Of a stretch of 64,000 nt of DNA, positions 11,122 to 47,074 are shown piece by piece. The DNA comes from Bacillota bacterium. GTDB taxonomy: Bacteria > Bacillota > Clostridia > Peptostreptococcales > Anaerovoracaceae. Made by a program: the position numbers and the translations under genes. The stretch is from contig JAFRYI010000006.1 of assembly GCA_017437745.1 (NCBI GenBank), positions 1,964 to 65,963 on the forward strand, given 5' to 3'. The notes below the pieces were generated by a model that saw nothing but the letters and a program-made list of their open reading frames with translations, was not told the DNA's origin and ran no database searches. Position 1 is the first letter of the stretch, and each line of letters opens with the position of its first letter.

Positions 11122-11967
11122 ATGAGATATTCAGAAAAGTGGGGCGACAGCATAGATTCTGCTGTGGCGCTTGCGCTTCAGGATCTTAAGCTTACCAGGG
11201 AGCAGGTGACAGTCACCGTTCTTGAGGAGCCGTCCAAGGGATTCTTCGGGATCGGTTCCAAGCTCGCCAAGGTAAGGGTCGAGGAGATAGCCCCCGAGAA
11301 GCCGGCCGTAGAGGAAAAGCCCGCTAAGCCGGAAAAGAAAGATAAAGAAGAAAGAAAGGCCGAGGCGCCCAAAGCCCAGGCAAAGGAAGAGACCAGAGAA
11401 AAGCGCGCTTCCGAAAAGCCCGCAAAGAAGAAGGACAAGAAGCCGCGCGGCAAAAGAGAATTTAAGATAGAAGGCGAAGCCCAGTCCGTATCCGCAAAGC
11501 CGGCGGATCTGGTGGACATGCCTGAGCATCCCGCAAAGGCCTTCCTTACGGATCTTATAAGGGAGATGGGCCTGGAGGCGAGCGTTAAGGTAGCCGCCAA
11601 CGCGGACAGCGTGTACGCTGACATAGAAGGCGCGGACACCGGAACGATAATAGGAAAGCGCGGACAGACGCTGGATTCCATCCAGTATCTTACCAGCCTG
11701 GTAGTGAACAAGGGCGAAGACGAGTACATCCGTGTGGTCGTGGACGCCGAGGGCTACAGGGCAAAGCGCGAAGCAACGCTGGAGAAGCTTGCATACAAGC
11801 TTGCGGAGAAGTCCGTAAGGACGGGCCGCAGCGTAAAGCTGGAACCGATGAACCCCTACGAGAGAAAGGTCATACATACCACTCTGCAGACGGTCCCCGC
11901 GGTGGTGACCAGGAGCGAAGGCAGCGAGCCGCACAGAAGGGTCGTAATCGAGCCCGCAAAGAAATAA
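11122..11967 (+). CDS. jag: RNA-binding protein Jag/KhpB (Jag_N, KH, R3H)
   Basis: 281 aa. Lys/Glu-rich linker, KH-like IGKRGQTLDSIQYL and C-terminal R3H-like ERKVIHTTLQ. Follows yidC. Confidence 0.88.
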   Translation: MRYSEKWGDSIDSAVALALQDLKLTREQVTVTVLEEPSKGFFGIGSKLAKVRVEEIAPEKPAVEEKPAKPEKKDKEERKAEAPKAQAKEETREKRASEKPAKKKDKKPRGKREFKIEGEAQSVSAKPADLVDMPEHPAKAFLTDLIREMGLEASVKVAANADSVYADIEGADTGTIIGKRGQTLDSIQYLTSLVVNKGEDEYIRVVVDAEGYRAKREATLEKLAYKLAEKSVRTGRSVKLEPMNPYERKVIHTTLQTVPAVVTRSEGSEPHRRVVIEPAKK

Positions 11968-11973
11968 ACGTTA

Positions 11974-12006
11974 AAGGCGGGGCATATGCTCCGCCTTGAT
12001 TTTTAT
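11974..12006 (+). terminator. intrinsic terminator after jag
   Basis: Stem AAGGCGGGGCA/TGCTCCGCCTT followed by GATTTTTAT. Confidence 0.7.
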
Positions 12007-12190
12007 CCGGCTTCGGTCCGGACTTCAGATGTTCTCTCAGCGCACTCCGCGGCTACACGCAGAGCCTTTTCGAGGCTTTTATCCGTTCGGCTCGTACCTA
12101 ACGGCCTTACGGAAAAGCCTTAACGAAAAGTCTCTTCTACCGCTCCGAAGCGCTTCGAGCCACCTGCAGTCCGGACCGGACAGATAAAAG
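12000..12190. repeat. ~190-bp long imperfect palindrome (rod-like hairpin element) between jag and mnmE
   Basis: Left end TTTTTATCCGGCTTCGGTCCGGACTTCAG pairs with right end CTGCAGTCCGGACCGGACAGATAAAAG. Inner segments also pair (CTTTTCG/CGAAAAG, AGGCTTTT/AAAAGCCT, CCGT/ACGG). No credible CDS. Confidence 0.6.
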
Positions 12191-12230
12191 TCACGGATAG
12201 CAATTTGTCAGTTAACCAATACAGCCGAAA

Positions 12231-15849: not shown

Positions 15850-16543
15850 ATTGTTCAGGCTTGAAGAATGGTTTAAACGAATGGAAAACGAATACCAGGA
15901 TAAACTGAATAAGCTTGCGGACATAATCCTGGAGTGGAACGAGAAGATAAACGTTACCGCCATCAGGGACCGCGCGGAATTCATGAAGAAGAACGTGGAG
16001 GACTCCCTGGAGATCCTGAGTCTGCCGGAGTTTAAGGATGCCCGCAGGATAATGGATCTGGGGACCGGGGGCGGTTTCCCGGGTCTGCCTCTGGCTATAG
16101 CTTGTCCGGACAAGGAATTCTACCTGCTGGACAGCGTAGCGAAAAAGCTGAAAGTCGTTGCGATCGCTGCGGATGAGCTGGGGCTGGAGAATGTGGAAGT
16201 TCTTAACATGCGCGCCGAGGATCTGGCAAAATGGCCCGCTTACCGCGAAAGCTTTGATATCGTGGCTTCCAGGGCCGTCGCTAACATGAGCACGCTCGCC
16301 GAATACTGCCTTCCTTTTGTAAAGGTCGGCGGGTATTTCGTTGCTTATAAGACTGCTTCCGCCGCGGAAGAGATAGCCGCAGCGCAGAACGCGGTGAAAA
16401 CGCTCGGCGGAGGAGAGCAGCGGATCGTAAAATACGGCGAGGAAGACAACGACCATTTATTTGTTGTAATCAAGAAGATCGCTCCCTGCTCTAAGAAGTA
16501 TCCAAGGAAAGCCGGCCTTCCCGCAAAGCAGCCGCTGAAGTGA
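15809..16543 (+). CDS. rsmG: 16S rRNA (guanine527-N7)-methyltransferase RsmG
   Basis: 244 aa. EWNEKINVTAI and SAM motif DLGTGGGFPGLPLAI. Start uncertain, with alternative in-frame starts up to ATG 15881. Confidence 0.88.
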   Translation: MSSLTVGFNVAAVSLFRLEEWFKRMENEYQDKLNKLADIILEWNEKINVTAIRDRAEFMKKNVEDSLEILSLPEFKDARRIMDLGTGGGFPGLPLAIACPDKEFYLLDSVAKKLKVVAIAADELGLENVEVLNMRAEDLAKWPAYRESFDIVASRAVANMSTLAEYCLPFVKVGGYFVAYKTASAAEEIAAAQNAVKTLGGGEQRIVKYGEEDNDHLFVVIKKIAPCSKKYPRKAGLPAKQPLK

Positions 16544-16591
16544 TCCGGATCGACTGATGCGTCAGCCGGACACAGTCTTATGATCGATATT

Positions 16592-16625
16592 AAAAATGGC
16601 GCGGAAACGCGTCATTTTGTATTTC
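16592..16625 (+). terminator. intrinsic terminator after rsmG
   Basis: ATGGCGCG-gaaa-CGCGTCAT followed by TTTTGTATTT. Confidence 0.75.
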
Positions 16626-16661
16626 GGTTATTCTCGTGTACCATATGTTGTTGTTTTTCGA

Positions 16662-16677
16662 TGTTTCACGTGAAACA
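16662..16677. promoter_or_regulatory. parS site 1
   Basis: TGTTTCACGTGAAACA is a perfect match to the Firmicute parS consensus TGTTNCACGTGAAACA. Confidence 0.9.
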
Positions 16678-16706
16678 TCGGTAGCCCGGCTCCTGCTGTC
16701 GGCAAA

Positions 16707-16722
16707 TATTTCACGTGAAACA
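16707..16722. promoter_or_regulatory. parS site 2
   Basis: TATTTCACGTGAAACA has one mismatch to the parS consensus. Confidence 0.85.
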
Positions 16723-16750
16723 CCCATCTTCCGGTCCCGGCGAACGCAAA

Positions 16751-16766
16751 TGTTTCACGTGAAACA
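16751..16766. promoter_or_regulatory. parS site 3 (adjacent to putative parA -10 TATAAT at 16774-16779)
   Basis: TGTTTCACGTGAAACA is a perfect parS. TATAAT lies 8 bp downstream. Confidence 0.9.
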
Positions 16767-16869
16767 ATGTGCATATAATTGTACCGTAATTACCAAAACA
16801 AATATAGAAGACAAAACGCAATAGTGGTATAATTAAAGCACAAAAGAGACTTCATCTAAGGGAGAAAAA

Positions 16870-23795: not shown

Positions 23796-25754
23796 ATGAA
23801 TAAAAAACTGGCAAAAGAATTATCTCAGCCGTTCATGATAATAGGGCTGATCGTGATGCTCGTGATGGGCGCCGTTATAATGTGGTTCAACATGTACGTT
23901 GGGCTTGCGGCGCTGTTCGTCGCGGCGGCGGTCTATTTCTTCCATCTCCGCTACACCCAGAACTTCGTGGAGAGAACGCTGGAGAAGAACGAGAAGACCG
24001 TCATCAAGGAGCACGAAGGCTATGTGGAGGCTTTCAGCAACGGCGCTCCGCTGCTGGTCTGCGTGGTCTCCAGAAACGGCGACGTAATATGGTCCAACCC
24101 CTCGTTCGAGACTTTCTTCGAGGACCAGAACCTTCTGCACACCACCATAAACACCGGATCGGTAAAGCCGTTCTTCGATTCCGCCGACACACAGATTGAA
24201 GCAACCATAAGCGGCAGGTGCTTTAAGGTTACGGGCGCGGACGCGGACTTCCGCGGCCACGAAAGAAGGATGCTCTTCTTCGCGGACACCACGGAGCTGG
24301 AAGACACCAAGGCATACATGGCGGACACCCGCCCCTGCGCCGCTTACATAAACGTGGATAACTACGACGACATGCTGGAGGCAAGCCCCGTTGAGGAGCA
24401 GTCCAGCATAGCCGCGGCCATAGACAAGACGGTCCACAACTGGGCCATAGGTCTGGACGCAGTGCTTCTGCGCGCCAGGATGGACAGATACCTTATGGTG
24501 TTCGAGCACAAGTACCTGGAGCCTCTGCGCACCATGCGCTTCCCCATCCTCAACGCCATGCACGACATAGAGACCAACGCGGACTTCCCGGCGTCTCTGT
24601 CCATAGGCGTCTGCGAAGGCGACGGAACGCTGGAGGAGCTTCAGGAAGGAGCATCCGCGGCGCTGGATCTGGCTCTTGGCAGAGGCGGCGACCAGGCGGT
24701 AGTCAGGAACCTGGAAGGCGATACCGAGTATTACGGCGGAGCTCTTCCGGCGGTAGAAAAACGCAACAAGGGCAAGAGCCGCGTAATGGCTCACATACTT
24801 TCGCAGCTTATAGAAGGCTCGGACAACGTGGTGATAATGGGCCACACGCGTCCGGATCTGGACTGCTTCGGCGCCGCTCTGGGCATCTACGCCCTGGTAA
24901 GCAACAGCGGAAAGCAGGCCGCCATAGTTCTGGAAGACCCCGGCGAAGGCGTAGACCTTATCTACAACGCGGCAAGAAACCTGGATAAATATACTTTCGT
25001 AGGACACGCGCAGGCTCTGGAACTTCTGGGCGACAACAGTCTGCTGGTGATGGTGGATCACCACCGCCCGGCAATCTCTGAGTTCCCCGGCCTTATCCAG
25101 TCTGCCAAGAAGATAGCGGTTATAGATCATCACAGAAAAGCCGGAGACGCGGTGGAGAACGCTCTCCTGGCATACATGGAAACTTACGCAAGCTCCACGT
25201 CGGAGCTTGTCTCCGAGCTTCTGCAGTACTCCGGAGACCGCGGAGAGATAACGCGTTTCGAGGCAGAGGCGCTGCTTTCCGGCATAGCTCTGGACACCAA
25301 GAGCTTCACCGTAAACGCGGGCGTAAGGACCTTCGAAGCGGCTTCGTGGCTCAGGCGCAGCGGCGCCGACATGGCCAACGTAAAGGAATACTTCAAGATA
25401 GGCCTGGATTTCTACCAGAAGAAGGCCAGGATAGTATCCAGCGTGGAGGTGCTGAACCACGGCATAGCGGTAGCTTACACAAGGGAGAGCGACCCTTCCA
25501 TGCAGGTGCTTGTATCGCAGGTGGCGGACGAGCTGCTGGAGATGCGCGACGTGGAAGCGGCGTTCGTAGCCGGACGCGGAGGCGCCAGGACCATGATCTC
25601 CGCAAGGTCCGCGGGAAAGATAAACGTACAGACGATAATGGAAAGACTGGGCGGAGGCGGTCATCAGACGGTGGCGGCGGCCCAGACGGACGTAGGCCCG
25701 GAAGAAGCGATCGCTCTGGTCGTGGCCATACTCAGAGACGAAAAACTGCTTTAG
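23796..25754 (+). CDS. gdpP: cyclic-di-AMP phosphodiesterase GdpP-like (TM-PAS-degenerate GGDEF-DHH/DHHA1)
   Basis: 652 aa. Two N-terminal TM helices, DHH motifs (VDHHRP, IDHHRK) and DHHA1 GGGGH. Conserved gdpP-rplI-dnaB synteny. Confidence 0.88.
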   Translation: MNKKLAKELSQPFMIIGLIVMLVMGAVIMWFNMYVGLAALFVAAAVYFFHLRYTQNFVERTLEKNEKTVIKEHEGYVEAFSNGAPLLVCVVSRNGDVIWSNPSFETFFEDQNLLHTTINTGSVKPFFDSADTQIEATISGRCFKVTGADADFRGHERRMLFFADTTELEDTKAYMADTRPCAAYINVDNYDDMLEASPVEEQSSIAAAIDKTVHNWAIGLDAVLLRARMDRYLMVFEHKYLEPLRTMRFPILNAMHDIETNADFPASLSIGVCEGDGTLEELQEGASAALDLALGRGGDQAVVRNLEGDTEYYGGALPAVEKRNKGKSRVMAHILSQLIEGSDNVVIMGHTRPDLDCFGAALGIYALVSNSGKQAAIVLEDPGEGVDLIYNAARNLDKYTFVGHAQALELLGDNSLLVMVDHHRPAISEFPGLIQSAKKIAVIDHHRKAGDAVENALLAYMETYASSTSELVSELLQYSGDRGEITRFEAEALLSGIALDTKSFTVNAGVRTFEAASWLRRSGADMANVKEYFKIGLDFYQKKARIVSSVEVLNHGIAVAYTRESDPSMQVLVSQVADELLEMRDVEAAFVAGRGGARTMISARSAGKINVQTIMERLGGGGHQTVAAAQTDVGPEEAIALVVAILRDEKLL

Positions 25755-37676: not shown

Positions 37677-37904
37677 ATGAAGAACTATGAATTAACGATC
37701 GAAAGACGTCAGCCTACCTGCGGAGGGCAGTCGCCGTTCAAATGCGAGATCCGCAGCGTGTCGACCGACGATCCGGTCGCTTACGTCAGGACACTGGAGC
37801 CGAACGGCGAGCTTAACGTAAGCACGGACGCTAACGGAGATCTGTGCGTAGAGCACACGGATCCCAGAGGATTCAACGTCAAATACATCTTCACAGAAGA
37901 GTAA
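37677..37904 (+). CDS. hypothetical small protein (75 aa)
   Basis: Strong SD (GGAGGA, 5 nt spacing). Coding-like composition. A TAGTATAAT -10 lies about 55 nt upstream. No family recognised. Confidence 0.5.
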   Translation: MKNYELTIERRQPTCGGQSPFKCEIRSVSTDDPVAYVRTLEPNGELNVSTDANGDLCVEHTDPRGFNVKYIFTEE

Positions 37905-37945
37905 TGATATAATTGCGCAGCTGCGCGGGAAGGAAAGGAACAATA

Positions 37946-39559
37946 ATGGCAAAGATCGATCTCAGCAAGTACGGAATCACCGGCGCGACCGAAATCATCC
38001 ACAATCCGTCGTACGAACTCCTCTTCGAGGAAGAAATGAAGGAAGGCCTTACCGGATTCGACGTAGGTACACTTACGGAGCTGGATACCGTAAACGTAAT
38101 GACAGGCGTCTACACCGGACGTTCGCCCAAGGACAAGTACATCGTAATGGATGCCAACTCCAAGGACACCGTTTGGTGGACCACTCCGGAATATCCCAAC
38201 GACAACCACCCCATGGACGAAAAGACCTGGGCCATCGTTAAAGATCTTGCCCAGAAGCAGCTCTCCGGCAAGAGGCTCTTCGTAATGGACGCTTTCTGCG
38301 GCGCCAACAAGGACACCCGCATGGCAGTGCGCTTCGTAATGGAAGTCGCCTGGCAGGCTCACTTCGTAAAGAACATGTTCATCCAGCCTACCGCTGAAGA
38401 GCTGGAGACATTCGAGCCGAACTTCGTGGTATACACCGCCTCCAAGGCAAAGGTGACCAACTACAAGGAACTGGGCCTCAACTCCGAGACCTGCGTAGCC
38501 TTCAACGTAAGCTCCAGAGAACAGGTAATACTCAACACCTGGTACGGCGGCGAGATGAAGAAGGGTATGTTCTCCATGATGAACTACTACCTGCCGCTCA
38601 AGGGCATCGCATCCATGCACTGCTCCGCCAACACCGACATGGAAGGCAAGAACACAGCCATCTTCTTCGGTCTGTCCGGAACAGGCAAGACCACCCTTTC
38701 CACCGACCCCAAGCGTCTGCTGATCGGCGACGACGAGCACGGCTGGGACGACAACGGAGTATTCAACTTCGAGGGCGGCTGCTACGCTAAGGTAATCAAT
38801 CTGGACAAGGAATCCGAGCCCGACATCTACAACGCGATCAAGAGGAACGCTCTTCTTGAGAACGTTACCGTAGACAAGGACGGAAAGATAGACTTCGCGG
38901 ACAAGAGCGTCACCGAGAACACTCGTGTAAGCTATCCTATCGAGCACATAGAAAAGATCGTAAAGAAGGTAAGACCCACCTCCGCAGGCCCGGCCGCAGA
39001 GAACGTCATCTTCCTTTCCGCCGACGCTTTCGGCGTTCTGCCTCCGGTCTCTATCCTGGATCCCGAGCAGACCCAGTACTACTTCCTCTCCGGATTCACC
39101 GCCAAACTGGCAGGTACCGAGCGCGGCATAACCGAGCCCACACCCACCTTCTCCGCATGCTTCGGCCAGGCATTCCTGGAGCTGCCGCCCACAAAGTACG
39201 GCGAAGAGCTCGTTAAGAGGATGCAGAAGAGCGGCGCCAAGGCTTACCTTGTAAACACCGGATGGAACGGCACCGGCAAGCGCATCTCCATAAAGGATAC
39301 CCGCGGAATAATCGACGCCATCCTTAACGGAAACATCAACAAGGCGCCCACCAAGAAGCTGCCGTATTTCAACTTCGAGATACCCACACAGCTGGACGGC
39401 GTGGCATGGGGCATCCTGGATCCTCGCGACACCTATCAGAACCGCAACGAGTGGGAAGAGAAGGCTAAGGATCTTGCCGGAAGGTTCATCAAGAACTTCA
39501 AGAAGTACGAGACCACCGAGAAGGGCAAGAGCCTTGTAAAGGCAGGCCCGCAGCTGTAA
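37946..39559 (+). CDS. pckA: phosphoenolpyruvate carboxykinase (ATP)
   Basis: ORF track gives 37913. I trimmed it to ATG 37946 ([30 protein letters not shown]). Kinase-1a motif [13 protein letters not shown] is present. Confidence 0.93.
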
Positions 39560-44919: not shown

Positions 44920-45411
44920 ATGCAGCACATAGTCCACCCAATTCCGCCGTTCTATGACGGAACATCCAGAATATTGATACTTGGAAGCTTTCCTTCGGTA
45001 AAGTCCAGGGAGAGCGGGTTTTTCTACGGCCATCCGCAGAACCGCTTCTGGAAGCTGCTGGCGGAGATGTTCGGCGAACCGATCCCGAAGACCGTTCCGG
45101 AGAAAGCGGACATGCTGCGGCGGCATCACATTGCGGCCTGGGACTCCATCCATTCCTGCGACATAGAGGGTTCAAGCGACAGCTCCATAACTAACGTGGT
45201 ACCTAACGACTTTACGGAGCTGCTTGCGGCGGCCGACATCCGCGCGGTCTTTACCAACGGAAAGAAGTCGCACGAGATCTACACTAAGTACTGCCTGCCT
45301 CAGACCGGACGCCCGGCCATATGCCTTCCGTCCACTTCGCCGGCCAACGCCGCATGGAACATGGAGCGCCTGCTCGAGGCTTGGAGACAGATCCTGGAAT
45401 ACCTGGACTGA
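44920..45411 (+). CDS. DNA-deoxyinosine/uracil-DNA glycosylase superfamily protein
   Basis: 163 aa. ILILGSFPS...GFFYGHPQNRFW and PSTSPAN motifs resemble UDG-superfamily hypoxanthine/mismatch glycosylases. Confidence 0.7.
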   Translation: MQHIVHPIPPFYDGTSRILILGSFPSVKSRESGFFYGHPQNRFWKLLAEMFGEPIPKTVPEKADMLRRHHIAAWDSIHSCDIEGSSDSSITNVVPNDFTELLAAADIRAVFTNGKKSHEIYTKYCLPQTGRPAICLPSTSPANAAWNMERLLEAWRQILEYLD

Positions 45412-45514
45412 CGAAAAGCAAGTAATTGCTCTTGAACCATCCGGATCGATACGATCATGGTGGCTTTGATGCCCTGCCCCAGATATCTCTGTACCGTTTT
45501 TGCCAATAATAAAA

Positions 45515-45543
45515 TTGAGCGCCCGGGGCGCTCTTTTTATAAT
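45515..45543 (+). promoter_or_regulatory. terminator hairpin (GAGCGCC-cgg-GGCGCTC + T5) overlapped by a sigma-A-like promoter TTGAGC-17-TATAAT
   Basis: -35 TTGAGC at 45515-20, a 17-nt spacer and -10 TATAAT at 45538-43. The hairpin at 45517-33 can terminate on either strand. Confidence 0.55.
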
Positions 45544-45549
45544 GTTATT

Positions 45550-45777
45550 GTGCTGCCGGAAGACGGTCAGCCCTTCCGCTTGGAGGGGTATCCTCCGGGC
45601 GAGAATTCGCAAAGGGGGTGATCCTATGACTGTAATGGATATGATCACGCGGATCTGCTTTGCAGTGACGCTTTTTATAGCCGGTTACACCATCGGAAAA
45701 AAGAAATGATCGCCAAATAGTTTCGAGGCATTGACGATCATTGTCAATAATCCAGGCTGACCGTCTTCCGGCAGCAC
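45550..45777. repeat. perfect 23-nt long-range inverted repeat flanking the small ORF
   Basis: GTGCTGCCGGAAGACGGTCAGCC at 45550-45572 has its exact reverse complement at 45755-45777. Confidence 0.95.
45626..45709 (+). CDS. 27-aa hydrophobic peptide, candidate type I toxin
   Basis: MTVMDMITRICFAVTLFIAGYTIGKKK. Strong SD AAGGGGGTG 5 nt upstream. The 69-aa track ORF (45500..45709) shares the frame, but its upstream part crosses the promoter/terminator. Confidence 0.45.
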   Translation: MTVMDMITRICFAVTLFIAGYTIGKKK

Positions 45778-45831
45778 CTTTGTATCAATAGTTTATCAGC
45801 GGGGCGCAGACGCGTCAAGCGCATTGCGGCC

Positions 45832-45870
45832 CTGAAAAGAAAAAAGCCCCGCATGGACGCGGGGCTGCTT
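45832..45870 (-). terminator. intrinsic terminator of serA (usable on both strands)
   Basis: AGCCCCGC-atggac-GCGGGGCT. On the minus strand it is followed by TTTTTTCTTTT. Confidence 0.85.
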
Positions 45871-45901
45871 TTATTGACACCGTCTGATCTCTGTAAGATC
45901 C

Positions 45902-47074
45902 TTACTTAATGATACGTACGCGTATAACTCCGTCTATGGCCTCCAGTGCGTCGGCAAGCTTCTGCGGTACCTGGGTGTTGAAGTCCAGGATGGTGTAGGC
46001 TATGCCTTCGCGGGCCTTGTTCACCAGATTCTCTATGTTGAGGCCCATGCCTGCGATCTTCTCGGTCATGAGGCCCAGCATGCCGACCTTGTTCTCGTGG
46101 ATGACGGTTATGCGGTCGCCTTCCGCGCGGGCGAAGCTGACGTCCGGCAGGTTTACGGAGTTGAGCACGTTGCCGTTCTCTAAGTAGTCGATGGTCTGGC
46201 GGGCCGCCATGATCGCGCAGTTGATCTCCGCCTCCGGGGTGCCGCTTGCCAGGTGAGGCGTGCAGAACACCTTGTCCATCTTCTTCATGCGGGGGGTGGG
46301 GAAGTCCGTTGCATAGCCGGCTATCTTGCCGCTTTCGAGAGCGTCGCAGATTACGTCGCCGTCGACTATGCCGCCGCGCGCGAAGTTCGCAAGGTAGACT
46401 CCGTCCTTCATAAGAGCGACGGCCTTTGCGTCTACCATTCCCTTGGTCTCATCGTTGAGCGGGGGATGCACGGTAACTACGTCCGCGTCCTTTATCGCTT
46501 CCTCGAAGCTGGGGGCGAAGTCCAGATATGCGCCAAGCTCCAGATATCTGCTGTGCGACAGGTAGGGATCGTAGCCTACGACCTTCATTCCAAGGTCGTG
46601 GCAGGCCTTGGCCACGCGCGAACCTACGTTGCCCACGCCGATCACCGCTATCTTCTTGCCCATTATCTCCGGGCCGCGGAACTTTTCCTTGCCGGACTCC
46701 ACAACGTTCTTGCCGTAGGCGGAGTCTTCGTCGGAGAGATTGCGGACCCAGGTCATGGCCTGGTAGCCGTTGCGCATGCTCATGATTATCGCCGCGATGG
46801 TCATTTCCTTTACCGCGTTGGCGTTGCCTCCGGGGCAGTTGACCACGCATATGCCCTGCTGAGTGCAGCGCTCGATTGGGATGTTGTTTACGCCTGCGCC
46901 GCAGCGCGCGATTATCTTCAGCTCCGGGCCGAATTCCATGTCGTGGATGGGCATGGAGCGTACCAGTATGGCGTCCGGTTTTTTAACGTCCTTGCTCAGC
47001 GTGTATTTGTTCGTGTCGAACGCGTCTATGCCTTCCTTGGCGACGTTGTTAAGAACCAGAATGTTGTTCATCAT
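45902..47074 (-). CDS. serA: D-3-phosphoglycerate dehydrogenase with C-terminal ACT domain
   Basis: 390 aa. NAD-binding IGVGNVGSRVA, 2-hydroxyacid dehydrogenase core and an ACT-like tail. Lies downstream of serC. Confidence 0.88.
   Translation of the reverse strand: MMNNILVLNNVAKEGIDAFDTNKYTLSKDVKKPDAILVRSMPIHDMEFGPELKIIARCGAGVNNIPIERCTQQGICVVNCPGGNANAVKEMTIAAIIMSMRNGYQAMTWVRNLSDEDSAYGKNVVESGKEKFRGPEIMGKKIAVIGVGNVGSRVAKACHDLGMKVVGYDPYLSHSRYLELGAYLDFAPSFEEAIKDADVVTVHPPLNDETKGMVDAKAVALMKDGVYLANFARGGIVDGDVICDALESGKIAGYATDFPTPRMKKMDKVFCTPHLASGTPEAEINCAIMAARQTIDYLENGNVLNSVNLPDVSFARAEGDRITVIHENKVGMLGLMTEKIAGMGLNIENLVNKAREGIAYTILDFNTQVPQKLADALEAIDGVIRVRIIK

What the first reader, a model, noticed from the sequence alone, without database searches (positions are those of the whole stretch)
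45515..45872. Type I toxin-antitoxin-like locus: 27-aa hydrophobic peptide framed by a perfect 23-nt 5'/3' inverted repeat
The gap between the DNA glycosylase gene and serA has a TTGAGC-17-TATAAT promoter (45515-45543). The predicted transcript begins at about 45550 with GTGCTGCCGGAAGACGGTCAGCC. The exact reverse complement of this segment lies at 45755-45777, just downstream of a 27-codon ORF (45626-45709, MTVMDMITRICFAVTLFIAGYTIGKKK). The peptide is one TM helix with a Lys tail and has a strong SD. CCUCC (45592-45596) can pair with GGAGG (45582-45586) or with the G-rich SD, which could occlude the SD. On the opposite strand TTGACG (45818-45813)-17-TAAACT (45795-45790) could drive an antisense RNA across the 3' arm and the ORF, ending at the bidirectional hairpin 45517-45533. 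Long-range 5'-3' fold-back, a tiny hydrophobic peptide and an overlapping antisense promoter are hallmarks of hok/Fst/TxpA-type type I TA modules.
Basis: partly seen in the sequence, partly recalled or inferred. Interest (0 to 1): 0.6.

Follow-up and report, generated by a model that had tools for sequence, protein, structure and literature searches.

The report
Antisense-controlled toxin-like peptide cassette
The gap between a DNA-glycosylase gene and serA holds a compact gene pair, a 27-residue membrane peptide and a small RNA made from the opposite strand, that belongs to a large and apparently undescribed family of toxin-antitoxin-like cassettes in gut and rumen bacteria; whether the peptide is toxic is untested.

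Summary
An independent metagenome assembly has the identical sequence.

The type I toxin-antitoxin-like reading holds up on comparative evidence. It is not a MITE.
- The 5'/3' pairing of the peptide mRNA is kept through compensatory and G.U changes in over 40 related cassettes.
- On the opposite strand, a promoter, a 5' stem-loop and a dedicated terminator define an RNA of about 87 nt (45783 to 45697). This layout recurs in about 100 loci, and the terminator stem covaries.

Two details need correcting.
- The antisense RNA stops at its own terminator. It covers only the last 13 nt of the ORF.
- The sense RNA probably ends just after the 3' arm, giving about 235 nt rather than about 320 nt.

New points:
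- This 1.63-Mb genome carries 11 such loci, 7 complete and 4 decayed.
- At the same serA locus, sister species have lost or frameshifted the peptide gene but keep the small-RNA promoter and stem at 100% identity.
- The shared RNA box occurs across Clostridia, Negativicutes and Erysipelotrichia, while the peptides differ.

No match passes a curated threshold in Rfam, Pfam or NCBIfam, and I found no paper describing the family. Earlier notes of this scan describe similar cassettes on other DNA.

The parts
45515..45543 (+). Promoter of the peptide mRNA: -35 TTGAGC, 17-nt spacer, -10 TATAAT
   Evidence: 10 of 12 matches. The same promoter is kept in the orthologous locus of G008. In relatives a -10 box sits 7-14 nt before the 5' arm.
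45517..45533 (.). GC-rich hairpin with T-runs on both sides (bidirectional terminator-like), lying inside the promoter spacer. It probably ends the upstream UDG-family gene.
   Evidence: Also present in G008 with a changed loop.
45550..45572 (+). 5' arm at the predicted 5' end of the peptide mRNA. It is identical in sequence to the 5' stem-loop region of the antisense RNA.
   Evidence: It is the homologue of helices H1+H2 of the family.
45582..45596 (+). GGAGG / CCUCC hairpin. The CCUCC can pair instead with the G-rich SD.
   Evidence: GGAGG:CCUCC forms in the closed fold. CCUCC:GGGGG (the SD) forms when the 3' arm is blocked or not yet made.
45614..45621 (+). Shine-Dalgarno sequence GGGGGTGA, 4 nt before the ATG
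   Evidence: Predicted to be mostly paired in every modelled state.
45626..45709 (+). 27-codon ORF MTVMDMITRICFAVTLFIAGYTIGKKK: a hydrophobic core ICFAVTLFIAGYTIG followed by a KKK tail
   Evidence: It aligns with the '(L/A)GY..G' peptide subfamily, where codon differences run 3rd > 1st > 2nd position. Kyte-Doolittle mean hydropathy is 1.98 for residues 10-24.
45697..45742 (-). Terminator of the antisense RNA. The stem is AAUGAUCGUCAA / UUGGCGAUCAUU and the tail is UCUUUUUU. The toxin's stop codon lies in the stem, and its Lys codons encode the U-tract.
   Evidence: (I4). The same hairpin position covaries across 34 relatives, with 10 compensatory pairs.
45755..45777 (+). 3' arm of the peptide mRNA. 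On the minus strand the same bases form stem-loop SL1 of the antisense RNA.
   Evidence: This is the most conserved box of the family.
45779..45786 (+). U-rich tail (TTTGTATC) directly after the 3' arm. It is the probable 3' end of the peptide mRNA.
   Evidence: 70 of 87 related loci have at least 5 T in the 8 nt after the arm, against a background T fraction of 0.30. Inference only.
45697..45783 (-). Predicted antisense small RNA of about 87 nt: a short A-rich leader, SL1, a single-stranded spacer and the terminator SL2
   Evidence: No transcript data were available.
45790..45818 (-). Promoter of the antisense RNA: -35 TTGACG, 17-nt spacer, TGa-TAAACT
   Evidence: A promoter scoring at least 9 of 12 sits at the same place in 79 of 101 loci, against 2.8% of shuffles. 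This block is 100% identical in G002 and G005.
45845..45866 (-). serA terminator (context). It separates serA from the cassette here and in G002, and is absent in G005 and G008.

Best explanation
The 45515-45818 region is one complete copy of a compact cassette with the layout of a type I toxin-antitoxin system.

**The sense RNA.** A plus-strand mRNA of about 235 nt (about 45550 to 45785) encodes a 27-residue single-helix membrane peptide with a Lys tail. Its first 23 nt pair with the 23 nt just before its 3' end. The molecule is therefore closed, its ends are buried, and the Shine-Dalgarno sequence stays paired.

**The antisense RNA.** A convergent promoter makes an RNA of about 87 nt (45783 to 45697). 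It is fully complementary to the mRNA's 3'-terminal part: the 3' arm, a spacer, a hairpin and the last four codons plus the stop.

**The proposed mechanism.** The 5' stem-loop of the small RNA has the same sequence as the mRNA's own 5' arm. The two therefore compete for one 3' box. When the small RNA pairs, it should displace the 5' arm and create a long perfect duplex. That duplex would be an RNase III substrate, so the mRNA would be destroyed and kept untranslated. The closest known parallels are txpA/RatA and bsrG/SR4.

**What is shown by sequence comparison:** the coding ORF, the covarying 5'-3' helix, and the conserved antisense promoter, stem-loop and terminator.

**What is inferred:** that both RNAs are made, that they pair, that RNase III acts on the duplex, and that the peptide is toxic when over-made.
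For: **Observation.** All features confirmed.

**The 5'-3' helix.**
- In 37 cassettes, 96.8% of cells form a standard pair and 8 pairs change on both sides, against 2.9 +/- 1.1 in shuffles (0 of 500 as high). Structures slid by 1-3 columns pair in at most 50% of cells.
- In 13 cassettes not found through the box pattern, 88.6% of cells pair and 10 pairs change on both sides, 3 of them in the outer helix.
- Frequent G.U pairs show that selection acts on the plus-strand RNA, not on the DNA.
- Duplex energy is -32 to -58 kcal/mol, against -20 to -30 for shuffled 5' UTRs.
- 35 of 36 minimum-energy folds are closed by this helix.

**The antisense unit.**
- The RNAalifold consensus is SL1 plus a terminator. 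Ten of its 20 pairs have compensatory changes.
- A promoter scoring at least 9 of 12 sits at a fixed distance in 79 of 101 loci, against 2.8% of shuffles. Of the 101 loci, 52 have TTGACA and 45 have a TG extension.

**Coding evidence.** The window peptide aligns with 17 homologues. Codon-position differences are 2991 (3rd), 2162 (1st) and 1524 (2nd).

**Family size.**
- At least 120 stretches in named Bacillota genomes match the box.
- The window's own genome has 11 loci.

**Selection on the small RNA.** The promoter+SL1 block is 100% identical in two species that have lost the toxin, where the flanking genes are 86-92% identical.

**RNase III.** An ORF with the RNase III signature motif is present on C7.

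**Mechanism precedent.** SR4 acts at the 3' end of bsrG mRNA, triggers RNase III decay and tightens SD sequestration (PMC8309996).
Against:
- Toxicity is untested. At least one candidate of this kind, YhzE-2, proved non-toxic (PMC2887945).
- The window peptide matches no Pfam or NCBIfam family.
- Folding models show the SD about equally occluded with and without the small RNA: 0.36 against 0.35 unpaired in the window copy, and 0.25 against 0.18 on average in the family. No translational switch is therefore demonstrated.
- The window copy is atypical. Its arms are a perfect 23-bp duplex without the family's 5-nt bulge and G.U pairs, and the peptide has Arg9 at the start of the helix. It could be a silenced or derived allele.
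- Loci for one search were selected for duplex energy of -38 or lower and retrieved by a fixed 3'-box pattern. This inflates the percentage paired.
Confidence: 0.7

Rival explanations
1. The cassette is real, but the peptide is an ordinary, non-toxic small membrane protein whose level is set by an antisense RNA. It would then be a regulatory pair and not a toxin-antitoxin pair.
For: - Nothing here tests toxicity.
- Similar candidates have failed toxicity tests (YhzE-2, PMC2887945).
- The cassette lies in a core-genome gap (UDG / serA), not in a prophage or plasmid.
- Only 2 of 2.9 million viral contigs carry the box.
Against: - The genome holds 11 copies, and 4 of them have lost exactly the peptide part while keeping the small RNA.
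- Sister species also lost or frameshifted the peptide gene and kept the RNA.
- About a third of loci elsewhere carry the small RNA only.
- Cassettes occur in tandem arrays.
- The translation start is tightly sequestered.
- All of this is the usual picture for a harmful gene and its antidote.
Confidence: 0.2
2. The 23-nt arms are DNA-level repeats: termini of a MITE-like mobile element, or recombination sites of an invertible segment.
For: - In this window the repeat is perfect at the DNA level.
- The family is multi-copy in the genome.
- A 9-bp direct repeat, ATCTCTGTA, flanks the cassette at 45485 and 45887 (D7).
Against: - The exact arms occur only at this locus.
- The paralogues are divergent and each has its own peptide.
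- Both promoters lie outside the arms.
- In relatives the arms are not DNA repeats. They carry a 5-nt bulge and many G.U pairs that make sense only in plus-strand RNA.
- By my estimate, about 0.6 nine-bp direct repeats are expected by chance in 551 nt.
- An independent assembly shows the same orientation.
- No recombinase or transposase gene is adjacent.
Confidence: 0.03
3. The plus-strand transcript is a structured non-coding RNA and the 27-codon frame is not translated.
For: - The RNA box is more conserved than the peptide.
- The SD is predicted to be mostly paired.
Against: - An ORF of 22-46 codons with an SD and ATG, and mostly a basic tail, sits at the same place in about 50 loci.
- Codon-position differences run 3rd > 1st > 2nd, with 1026 synonymous codon differences.
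- Six of 37 peptides weakly match the Hol_Tox model.
Confidence: 0.05

Closest known systems
txpA/RatA and bsrG/SR4 (also bsrE/SR5, yonT/SR6) of Bacillus subtilis
   Same: - A small hydrophobic peptide with a basic C-terminal tail.
- A convergent cis-antisense RNA that overlaps the 3' end of the toxin mRNA, including the last codons.
- Expected RNase III cleavage of the duplex.
- SR4 binding at the 3' end also changes pairing around the SD (PMC8309996).
- Some family peptides weakly match Pfam Hol_Tox, the TxpA-type model (best E = 6.6e-5).
   Different: - The window peptide has no Pfam hit, and no family member reaches the gathering score.
- No Rfam antitoxin family matches.
- Here the mRNA's 5' end pairs with the very box the antisense RNA targets, and the antisense 5' stem-loop copies the mRNA 5' arm.
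- The cassette is chromosomal and multi-copy, and rarely on phage.
hok/Sok of plasmid R1 (fbi/tac fold-back) and aapA1/IsoA1 of Helicobacter pylori
   Same: A long-range 5'-3' interaction closes the full-length toxin mRNA and keeps it translationally silent and stable. This rests on established knowledge of these systems and on PMC6733600 as listed.
   Different: - Sok and IsoA1 act at the 5' part of the mRNA, whereas here the antisense RNA acts at the 3' end.
- The peptides are unrelated.
- Those hosts are Gram-negative.
- No processing step is known here.
par of pAD1 (fst RNA I / RNA II) and Fst-like loci
   Same: Convergent toxin and antitoxin RNAs, a peptide of about 30 residues, and Gram-positive hosts.
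   Different: - In par, the RNA II 5' repeats are complementary to the RNA I 5' region and block its ribosome site. Here the two 5' regions have the same sense and compete for a third site.
- No Fst-model match was found.
Clostridioides difficile CD2517.1/RCd8, CD2907.1/RCd9 and CD0956.2/RCd10
   Same: Clostridial, with convergent overlapping genes, a hydrophobic N-terminal part, a Lys-rich C-terminus and many paralogues (PMC6563280).
   Different: - Those toxins are 34-53 residues long.
- They lie in prophages or next to CRISPR arrays.
- That review reports no sequence homology between those toxins and known type I toxins of other bacteria. I did not compare them with this family.

Membership tests
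Type I toxin-antitoxin system (generic class) | Small (under 60 aa) hydrophobic peptide gene | tested here: met
   The 27-aa ORF has a 15-residue hydrophobic core and a KKK tail. The frame is conserved and has a coding-type substitution pattern.
Type I toxin-antitoxin system (generic class) | An antisense RNA that pairs with the toxin mRNA | tested here: inconclusive
   A conserved promoter, stem-loop and covarying terminator define the unit.
Type I toxin-antitoxin system (generic class) | Peptide toxic on over-expression and neutralised by the RNA | not testable with these tools
   Needs expression in a laboratory host.
TxpA / Hol_Tox (Pfam PF16935) | Peptide matches the family model at its curated cut-off (23.3 bits) | tested here: not met
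   The window peptide has no hit. Six of 37 family peptides match at E <= 1, and all six score below the cut-off.
RatA, SR4 and other Rfam antitoxin RNA families | RNA matches the covariance model | tested here: not met
   No relevant match at E <= 10 on 45350-45950. No match at gathering score on 12 typical loci.
hok/Sok | Hok-family peptide, with the antisense RNA acting on the 5' leader or mok | tested here: not met
   No Pfam hit. The antisense unit lies at the 3' end.
hok/Sok | 5'-3' fold-back of the full-length mRNA | tested here: met
   The 23-bp helix closes the fold, and the helix covaries in the family. This is a resemblance in design, not membership.
MITE / mobile inverted-repeat element | Many near-identical copies bounded by the inverted repeats, with target duplications | tested here: not met
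   The exact arms occur at one locus only. The paralogues are divergent. In relatives the arms carry G.U pairs and a bulge.
The cassette family defined here (24-nt box GGCUrACCGUCUAUCGGCAGCACC with a 5' clamp) | Peptide ORF, 5' arm, 3' box, and a convergent small RNA with SL1 and a terminator whose U-tract is encoded by the ORF's Lys codons | tested here: met
   All parts are present in the window. The window differs in having a perfect, unbulged clamp.

The most novel reading that the evidence does not exclude
This is one member of an RNA-defined superfamily spread across several classes of Bacillota. In it, the conserved unit is a three-way RNA device and the peptide varies. The antitoxin RNA's 5' stem-loop is a near copy of the toxin mRNA's own 5' end, and both compete for a single 24-nt box at the mRNA's 3' end. 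The antitoxin would therefore work by un-clamping a circularised mRNA, not by covering its ribosome site. The many small-RNA-only loci, kept at 100% identity after the toxin was lost, would form a trans-acting immunity network against paralogous or incoming cassettes.
Probability: 0.3. Interest if true: 0.72.

Novelty: new variant of a known kind. Interest (0 to 1): 0.58.

Why it matters
[quoted passage not shown] They are almost unmapped in the dominant anaerobes of gut and rumen.

If the reading holds, this family would fill that gap:
- It has hundreds of copies across Lachnospiraceae, Oscillospiraceae, Selenomonadaceae and others.
- It reaches 11 copies in a 1.6-Mb genome.
- It offers a design in which the antisense RNA and the mRNA's own 5' end compete for one site. 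That would be a new variant of RNA control.

It also gives practical leads:
- unannotated genes to add to genome annotation;
- a candidate Rfam family;
- cultured carriers in which it can be tested: Agathobaculum butyriciproducens DSM 100391, Roseburia inulinivorans DSM 16841, Selenomonas infelix ATCC 43532 and Anaerovibrio lipolyticus.

Tried and rejected
- **Rfam.** The permissive scan of the region gave only terminator-driven noise. The scan of 12 typical loci found only tRNA and 5S rRNA.
- **Protein families.** Pfam and NCBIfam gave nothing significant on the window peptide.
- **Phages and plasmids.** tblastn of a family peptide against phages and blastn of the locus against plasmids found no match.
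- **Exact peptide look-up.** The window and C2 peptides are not in the 15-billion-protein collection. Relatives that are present are unnamed or 'hypothetical'.
- **Genome searches.** Paralogues in sister genomes and prevalence within the family could not be counted.
- **SD-accessibility modelling.** With and without the small RNA it gave no clear switch. I do not claim one.
- **MITE and invertible-segment readings.** Rejected.
- **A chance 9-bp flanking direct repeat.** Not significant.
- **Literature.** Searches for a description of this family found none. [quoted passage not shown] Some of these may be members, but the supplementary tables are not held.
- **Taxon.** The genome's taxon name could not be recovered.

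Full report
**1. The observation**

- The promoter TTGAGC-17-TATAAT lies at 45515-45543.
- The perfect 23-nt inverted repeat is 45550-45572 / 45755-45777.
- The 27-codon ORF is 45626-45709, with GGGGGTGA 4 nt upstream of the ATG.
- GGAGG is at 45582-45586 and CCTCC at 45592-45596.
- The minus-strand promoter is TTGACG-17-(TGa)TAAACT at 45818-45790.

The sense RNA folds at -146 kcal/mol, against -103 +/- 5.5 for shuffles (z = -7.8). The 23-bp helix closes the molecule. A contig assembled independently from another metagenome (L161) is identical over all 501 bases compared. The flanking genes are a UDG-family gene (44920-45411, Pfam UDG) and serA (45902-47074, minus strand).

**2. What else is in the locus**

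On the minus strand, the hairpin 45742-45731 / 45716-45705 is followed by UCUUUUUU at 45704-45697. This is an intrinsic terminator that works only in that direction. Its stem contains the ORF's stop codon, and its U-tract is the complement of the Lys codons (direct reading).

With a start about 7 nt after the -10 box, near 45783, the antisense RNA is about 87 nt long. It consists of a short A-rich leader, stem-loop SL1 (the complement of the 3' arm), a single-stranded spacer and the terminator SL2. It therefore overlaps only the last 13 nt of the ORF.

Directly after the 3' arm the plus strand reads TTTGTATC. Of 87 related loci, 70 have at least 5 T in these 8 nt, against a background T fraction of 0.30. 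The sense RNA therefore probably ends there, at about 235 nt, and not at the serA terminator.

**3. Relatives**

*The same locus in sister species*.
- G008 has the same promoter and a canonical clamp with different arm sequences: GGCCGCCCUC / GAGGGCGGCC.
- The G008 ORF carries a 1-nt deletion relative to the C2 paralogue, so it is frameshifted.
- G002 and G005 lack the promoter, the 5' arm and most of the ORF. They keep the ORF tail, SL2, SL1 and the antisense promoter.
- That promoter+SL1 block (45755-45820) is 100% identical to the window in both species. The flanking UDG and serA ends are 86-92% identical.

*Other genomes.*
- The hits lie in Lachnospiraceae, Oscillospiraceae, Ruminococcaceae, Selenomonadaceae and other Negativicutes, Mogibacterium and Bulleidia. 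Cultured carriers include Roseburia inulinivorans DSM 16841, Agathobaculum butyriciproducens DSM 100391, Anaerotruncus sp. G3, Selenomonas infelix ATCC 43532 and Anaerovibrio lipolyticus.
- Some loci are tandem arrays, for example three copies about 465 bp apart in L109.
- A few hits in non-Bacillota genomes lack every other feature and are chance matches.
- Only 2 of 2.9 million viral contigs carry the box.
- Of 80 matches with full upstream sequence, 48 have a 5' arm. Most of the other 32 keep the terminator and a relic of the ORF tail, so they are small-RNA-only loci.

*The window's own genome.*
- A profile of the small RNA finds 11 loci in 1.63 Mb.
- Seven are complete, with peptides of 27-35 residues such as MNVESMIAILSLCITCFMAGYTLGSRNSDKKQK on C2.
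- Four are decayed by 5' truncation or internal deletion of the peptide part. All four keep the small-RNA unit.

**4. Tests of the RNA model**

*The 5'-3' clamp.* In the family the clamp has three elements:
- an outer helix, GGUGCUGCC / GGCAGCACC;
- a bulge of about 5 nt on the 5' side;
- an inner helix of 15-16 bp, GGUAGGCGGUUAGCC / GGCUAACCGUCUAUC, containing G.U pairs.

On 37 cassettes, 96.8% of cells pair and 8 pairs change on both sides, against 2.9 +/- 1.1 in shuffles (0 of 500 as high). Structures slid by 1-3 columns pair in at most 50% of cells.

Those loci were retrieved by a fixed 3'-box pattern and filtered for duplex energy. I therefore repeated the count on 13 cassettes found by BLAST or by the profile instead. 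There, 88.6% of cells pair and 10 pairs change on both sides, against 5.3 +/- 1.5 (0 of 500). Three of the 10 are in the outer helix, for example GGCACUGCC / GGCGGUGCC.

The abundant G.U pairs would be C.A on the other strand. They place the selection on the plus-strand RNA and argue against a DNA-level repeat.

*The antisense RNA.* RNAalifold on 34 sequences returns SL1 plus the terminator. Ten of the 20 pairs have compensatory changes, all in the terminator. SL1 could not vary in this set because of how the loci were found.

*Promoters.*
- A promoter scoring at least 9 of 12 lies at a fixed distance before SL1 in 79 of 101 loci, against 2.8% of shuffles. Of the 101 loci, 52 have a perfect TTGACA and 45 a TG extension.
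- The sense promoter is weaker on average: at least 9 of 12 in 11 of 21 loci.

*The ORF.* The window peptide aligns with the '(L/A)GY..G' subfamily. Differences by codon position are 2991 (3rd), 2162 (1st) and 1524 (2nd), with 1026 synonymous codon differences.

**5. How it most likely works**

The comparative evidence establishes three things:
- a translated small ORF;
- an mRNA whose ends pair;
- a convergent small-RNA gene whose product is perfectly complementary to the mRNA's last ~87 nt.

The rest is inference. The closed mRNA is likely a stable, poorly translated store. The SD is mostly paired in every model: mean unpaired probability is 0.25 in the family and 0.36 in the window copy.

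The small RNA has the same 5' sequence as the mRNA's 5' arm, but it pairs without a bulge or wobbles. It should therefore win the 3' box, starting from the single-stranded spacer. It would then release the 5' arm and form a long duplex that RNase III can cut. An ORF with the RNase III signature motif is present on C7.

In the closed state, CCUCC pairs with GGAGG, and the SD pairs with codons 5-8. The models do not predict a clear change in SD exposure, so I do not claim a translational switch.

The precedent is bsrG/SR4. There, an antisense RNA that binds the 3' end triggers RNase III decay and tightens SD pairing (PMC8309996).

The window copy is unusual within the family. Its clamp is a perfect 23-bp duplex of -53 kcal/mol, the strongest of the 43 cassettes in that comparison. 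It lacks the bulge, and its 5' arm is letter-for-letter the small RNA's 5' region. Such a helix might itself be an RNase III substrate, so this allele may be more tightly silenced. This is speculation.

**6. Comparison with known systems**

In layout it is closest to txpA/RatA and bsrG/SR4. The fold-back resembles hok and aapA1.

It is not a sequence member of any of them.
- The window peptide hits no Pfam or NCBIfam model.
- Hol_Tox (PF16935) is the best family for 6 of 37 relatives. All six score below its cut-off, with a best E of 6.6e-5.
- No Rfam family matches.
- Where gene callers predicted the peptides, they are unnamed or 'hypothetical', for example in Acetatifactor muris.
[quoted passage not shown] Some of those may belong to this family. 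I could not check, because the supplementary tables are not held.
- I found no paper that describes the clamp or the box.

**7. Earlier notes of this scan**

A word search returned seven follow-up notes on other genomes. They describe 'new gut-Clostridia type I toxin-antitoxin' cassettes with a convergent antisense RNA. At least two of them also note an mRNA that pairs its own two ends. They agree with my reading, which I had formed and stated before seeing them. They carry no sequences, so I cannot confirm that all concern the same family. My conclusions rest on the tests above.

**8. Limits**

- Toxicity is untested.
- The genome's taxon name could not be recovered.

**9. Verdict**

The locus is one of 11 copies of a widespread, apparently undescribed family of type I toxin-antitoxin-like cassettes with a distinctive RNA design.

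Noticed in passing
window 45489-45505; also G000 C8:9859, C22:101478/101500, C7:86759/86790, C21:11355, C6:25437 and others: A repeated motif, (a)agtcTGT(A/G)CCGTTTT(t)gccaa, has 27 exact sites in the genome against about 3 expected by my estimate. Ten of the 11 cassettes have one 60-150 nt upstream of the peptide promoter, in either orientation. Other sites lie just before terminator-like hairpins or at the -35 position of TGnTATAAT promoters. The motif is present in sister species G008 but in none of 87 cassettes of other genera. Its function is unknown.
   Followed up: partly
G000 contigs C2:~11929-12205, C19:~415-690, C19:~16500-16830, C19:~37860-38130, C20:~1090-1360, C6:~25160-25400; decayed: C7:80085-80169, C22:81262-81350, C22:130404-130483, C10:20001-20094: There are ten further cassettes of the same family in this 1.63-Mb genome. 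Four of them have lost the peptide start or its first half but keep the small-RNA unit.
   Followed up: partly
L006 (G008) ~960-1240; L004 (G002) ~1480-1640; L005 (G005) ~1500-1660: At the orthologous UDG/serA gap, one sister species has a frameshifted peptide gene. Two others share the same deletion junction right after the UDG stop codon (tgatcccgcagcaacggcaaaaaa). All three keep the antisense unit. In G005 and G008 there is no separate serA terminator, so the small-RNA region may also serve as the serA 3' UTR.
   Followed up: partly
window 45515-45543: A GC-rich terminator-like hairpin (45517-45533) forms the spacer between the -35 and -10 boxes of the peptide promoter. One stretch of DNA thus appears to end the upstream gene and start the cassette. 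The arrangement is conserved in G008.
   Followed up: no
L109 209-1162; L074 5852-6498; L073 6002-6482: Other genomes carry tandem arrays of two or three cassettes with near-identical peptides. Examples are three copies about 465 bp apart in a Lachnospiraceae MAG and two copies in Agathobaculum.
   Followed up: no
window 45697-45709 and the same place in relatives: The peptide's Lys-rich tail and stop codon (AAAAAGAAATGA) are also the U-tract and stem base of the antisense terminator on the other strand. This double use may help explain why the basic tail is so constant across otherwise different peptides.
   Followed up: partly
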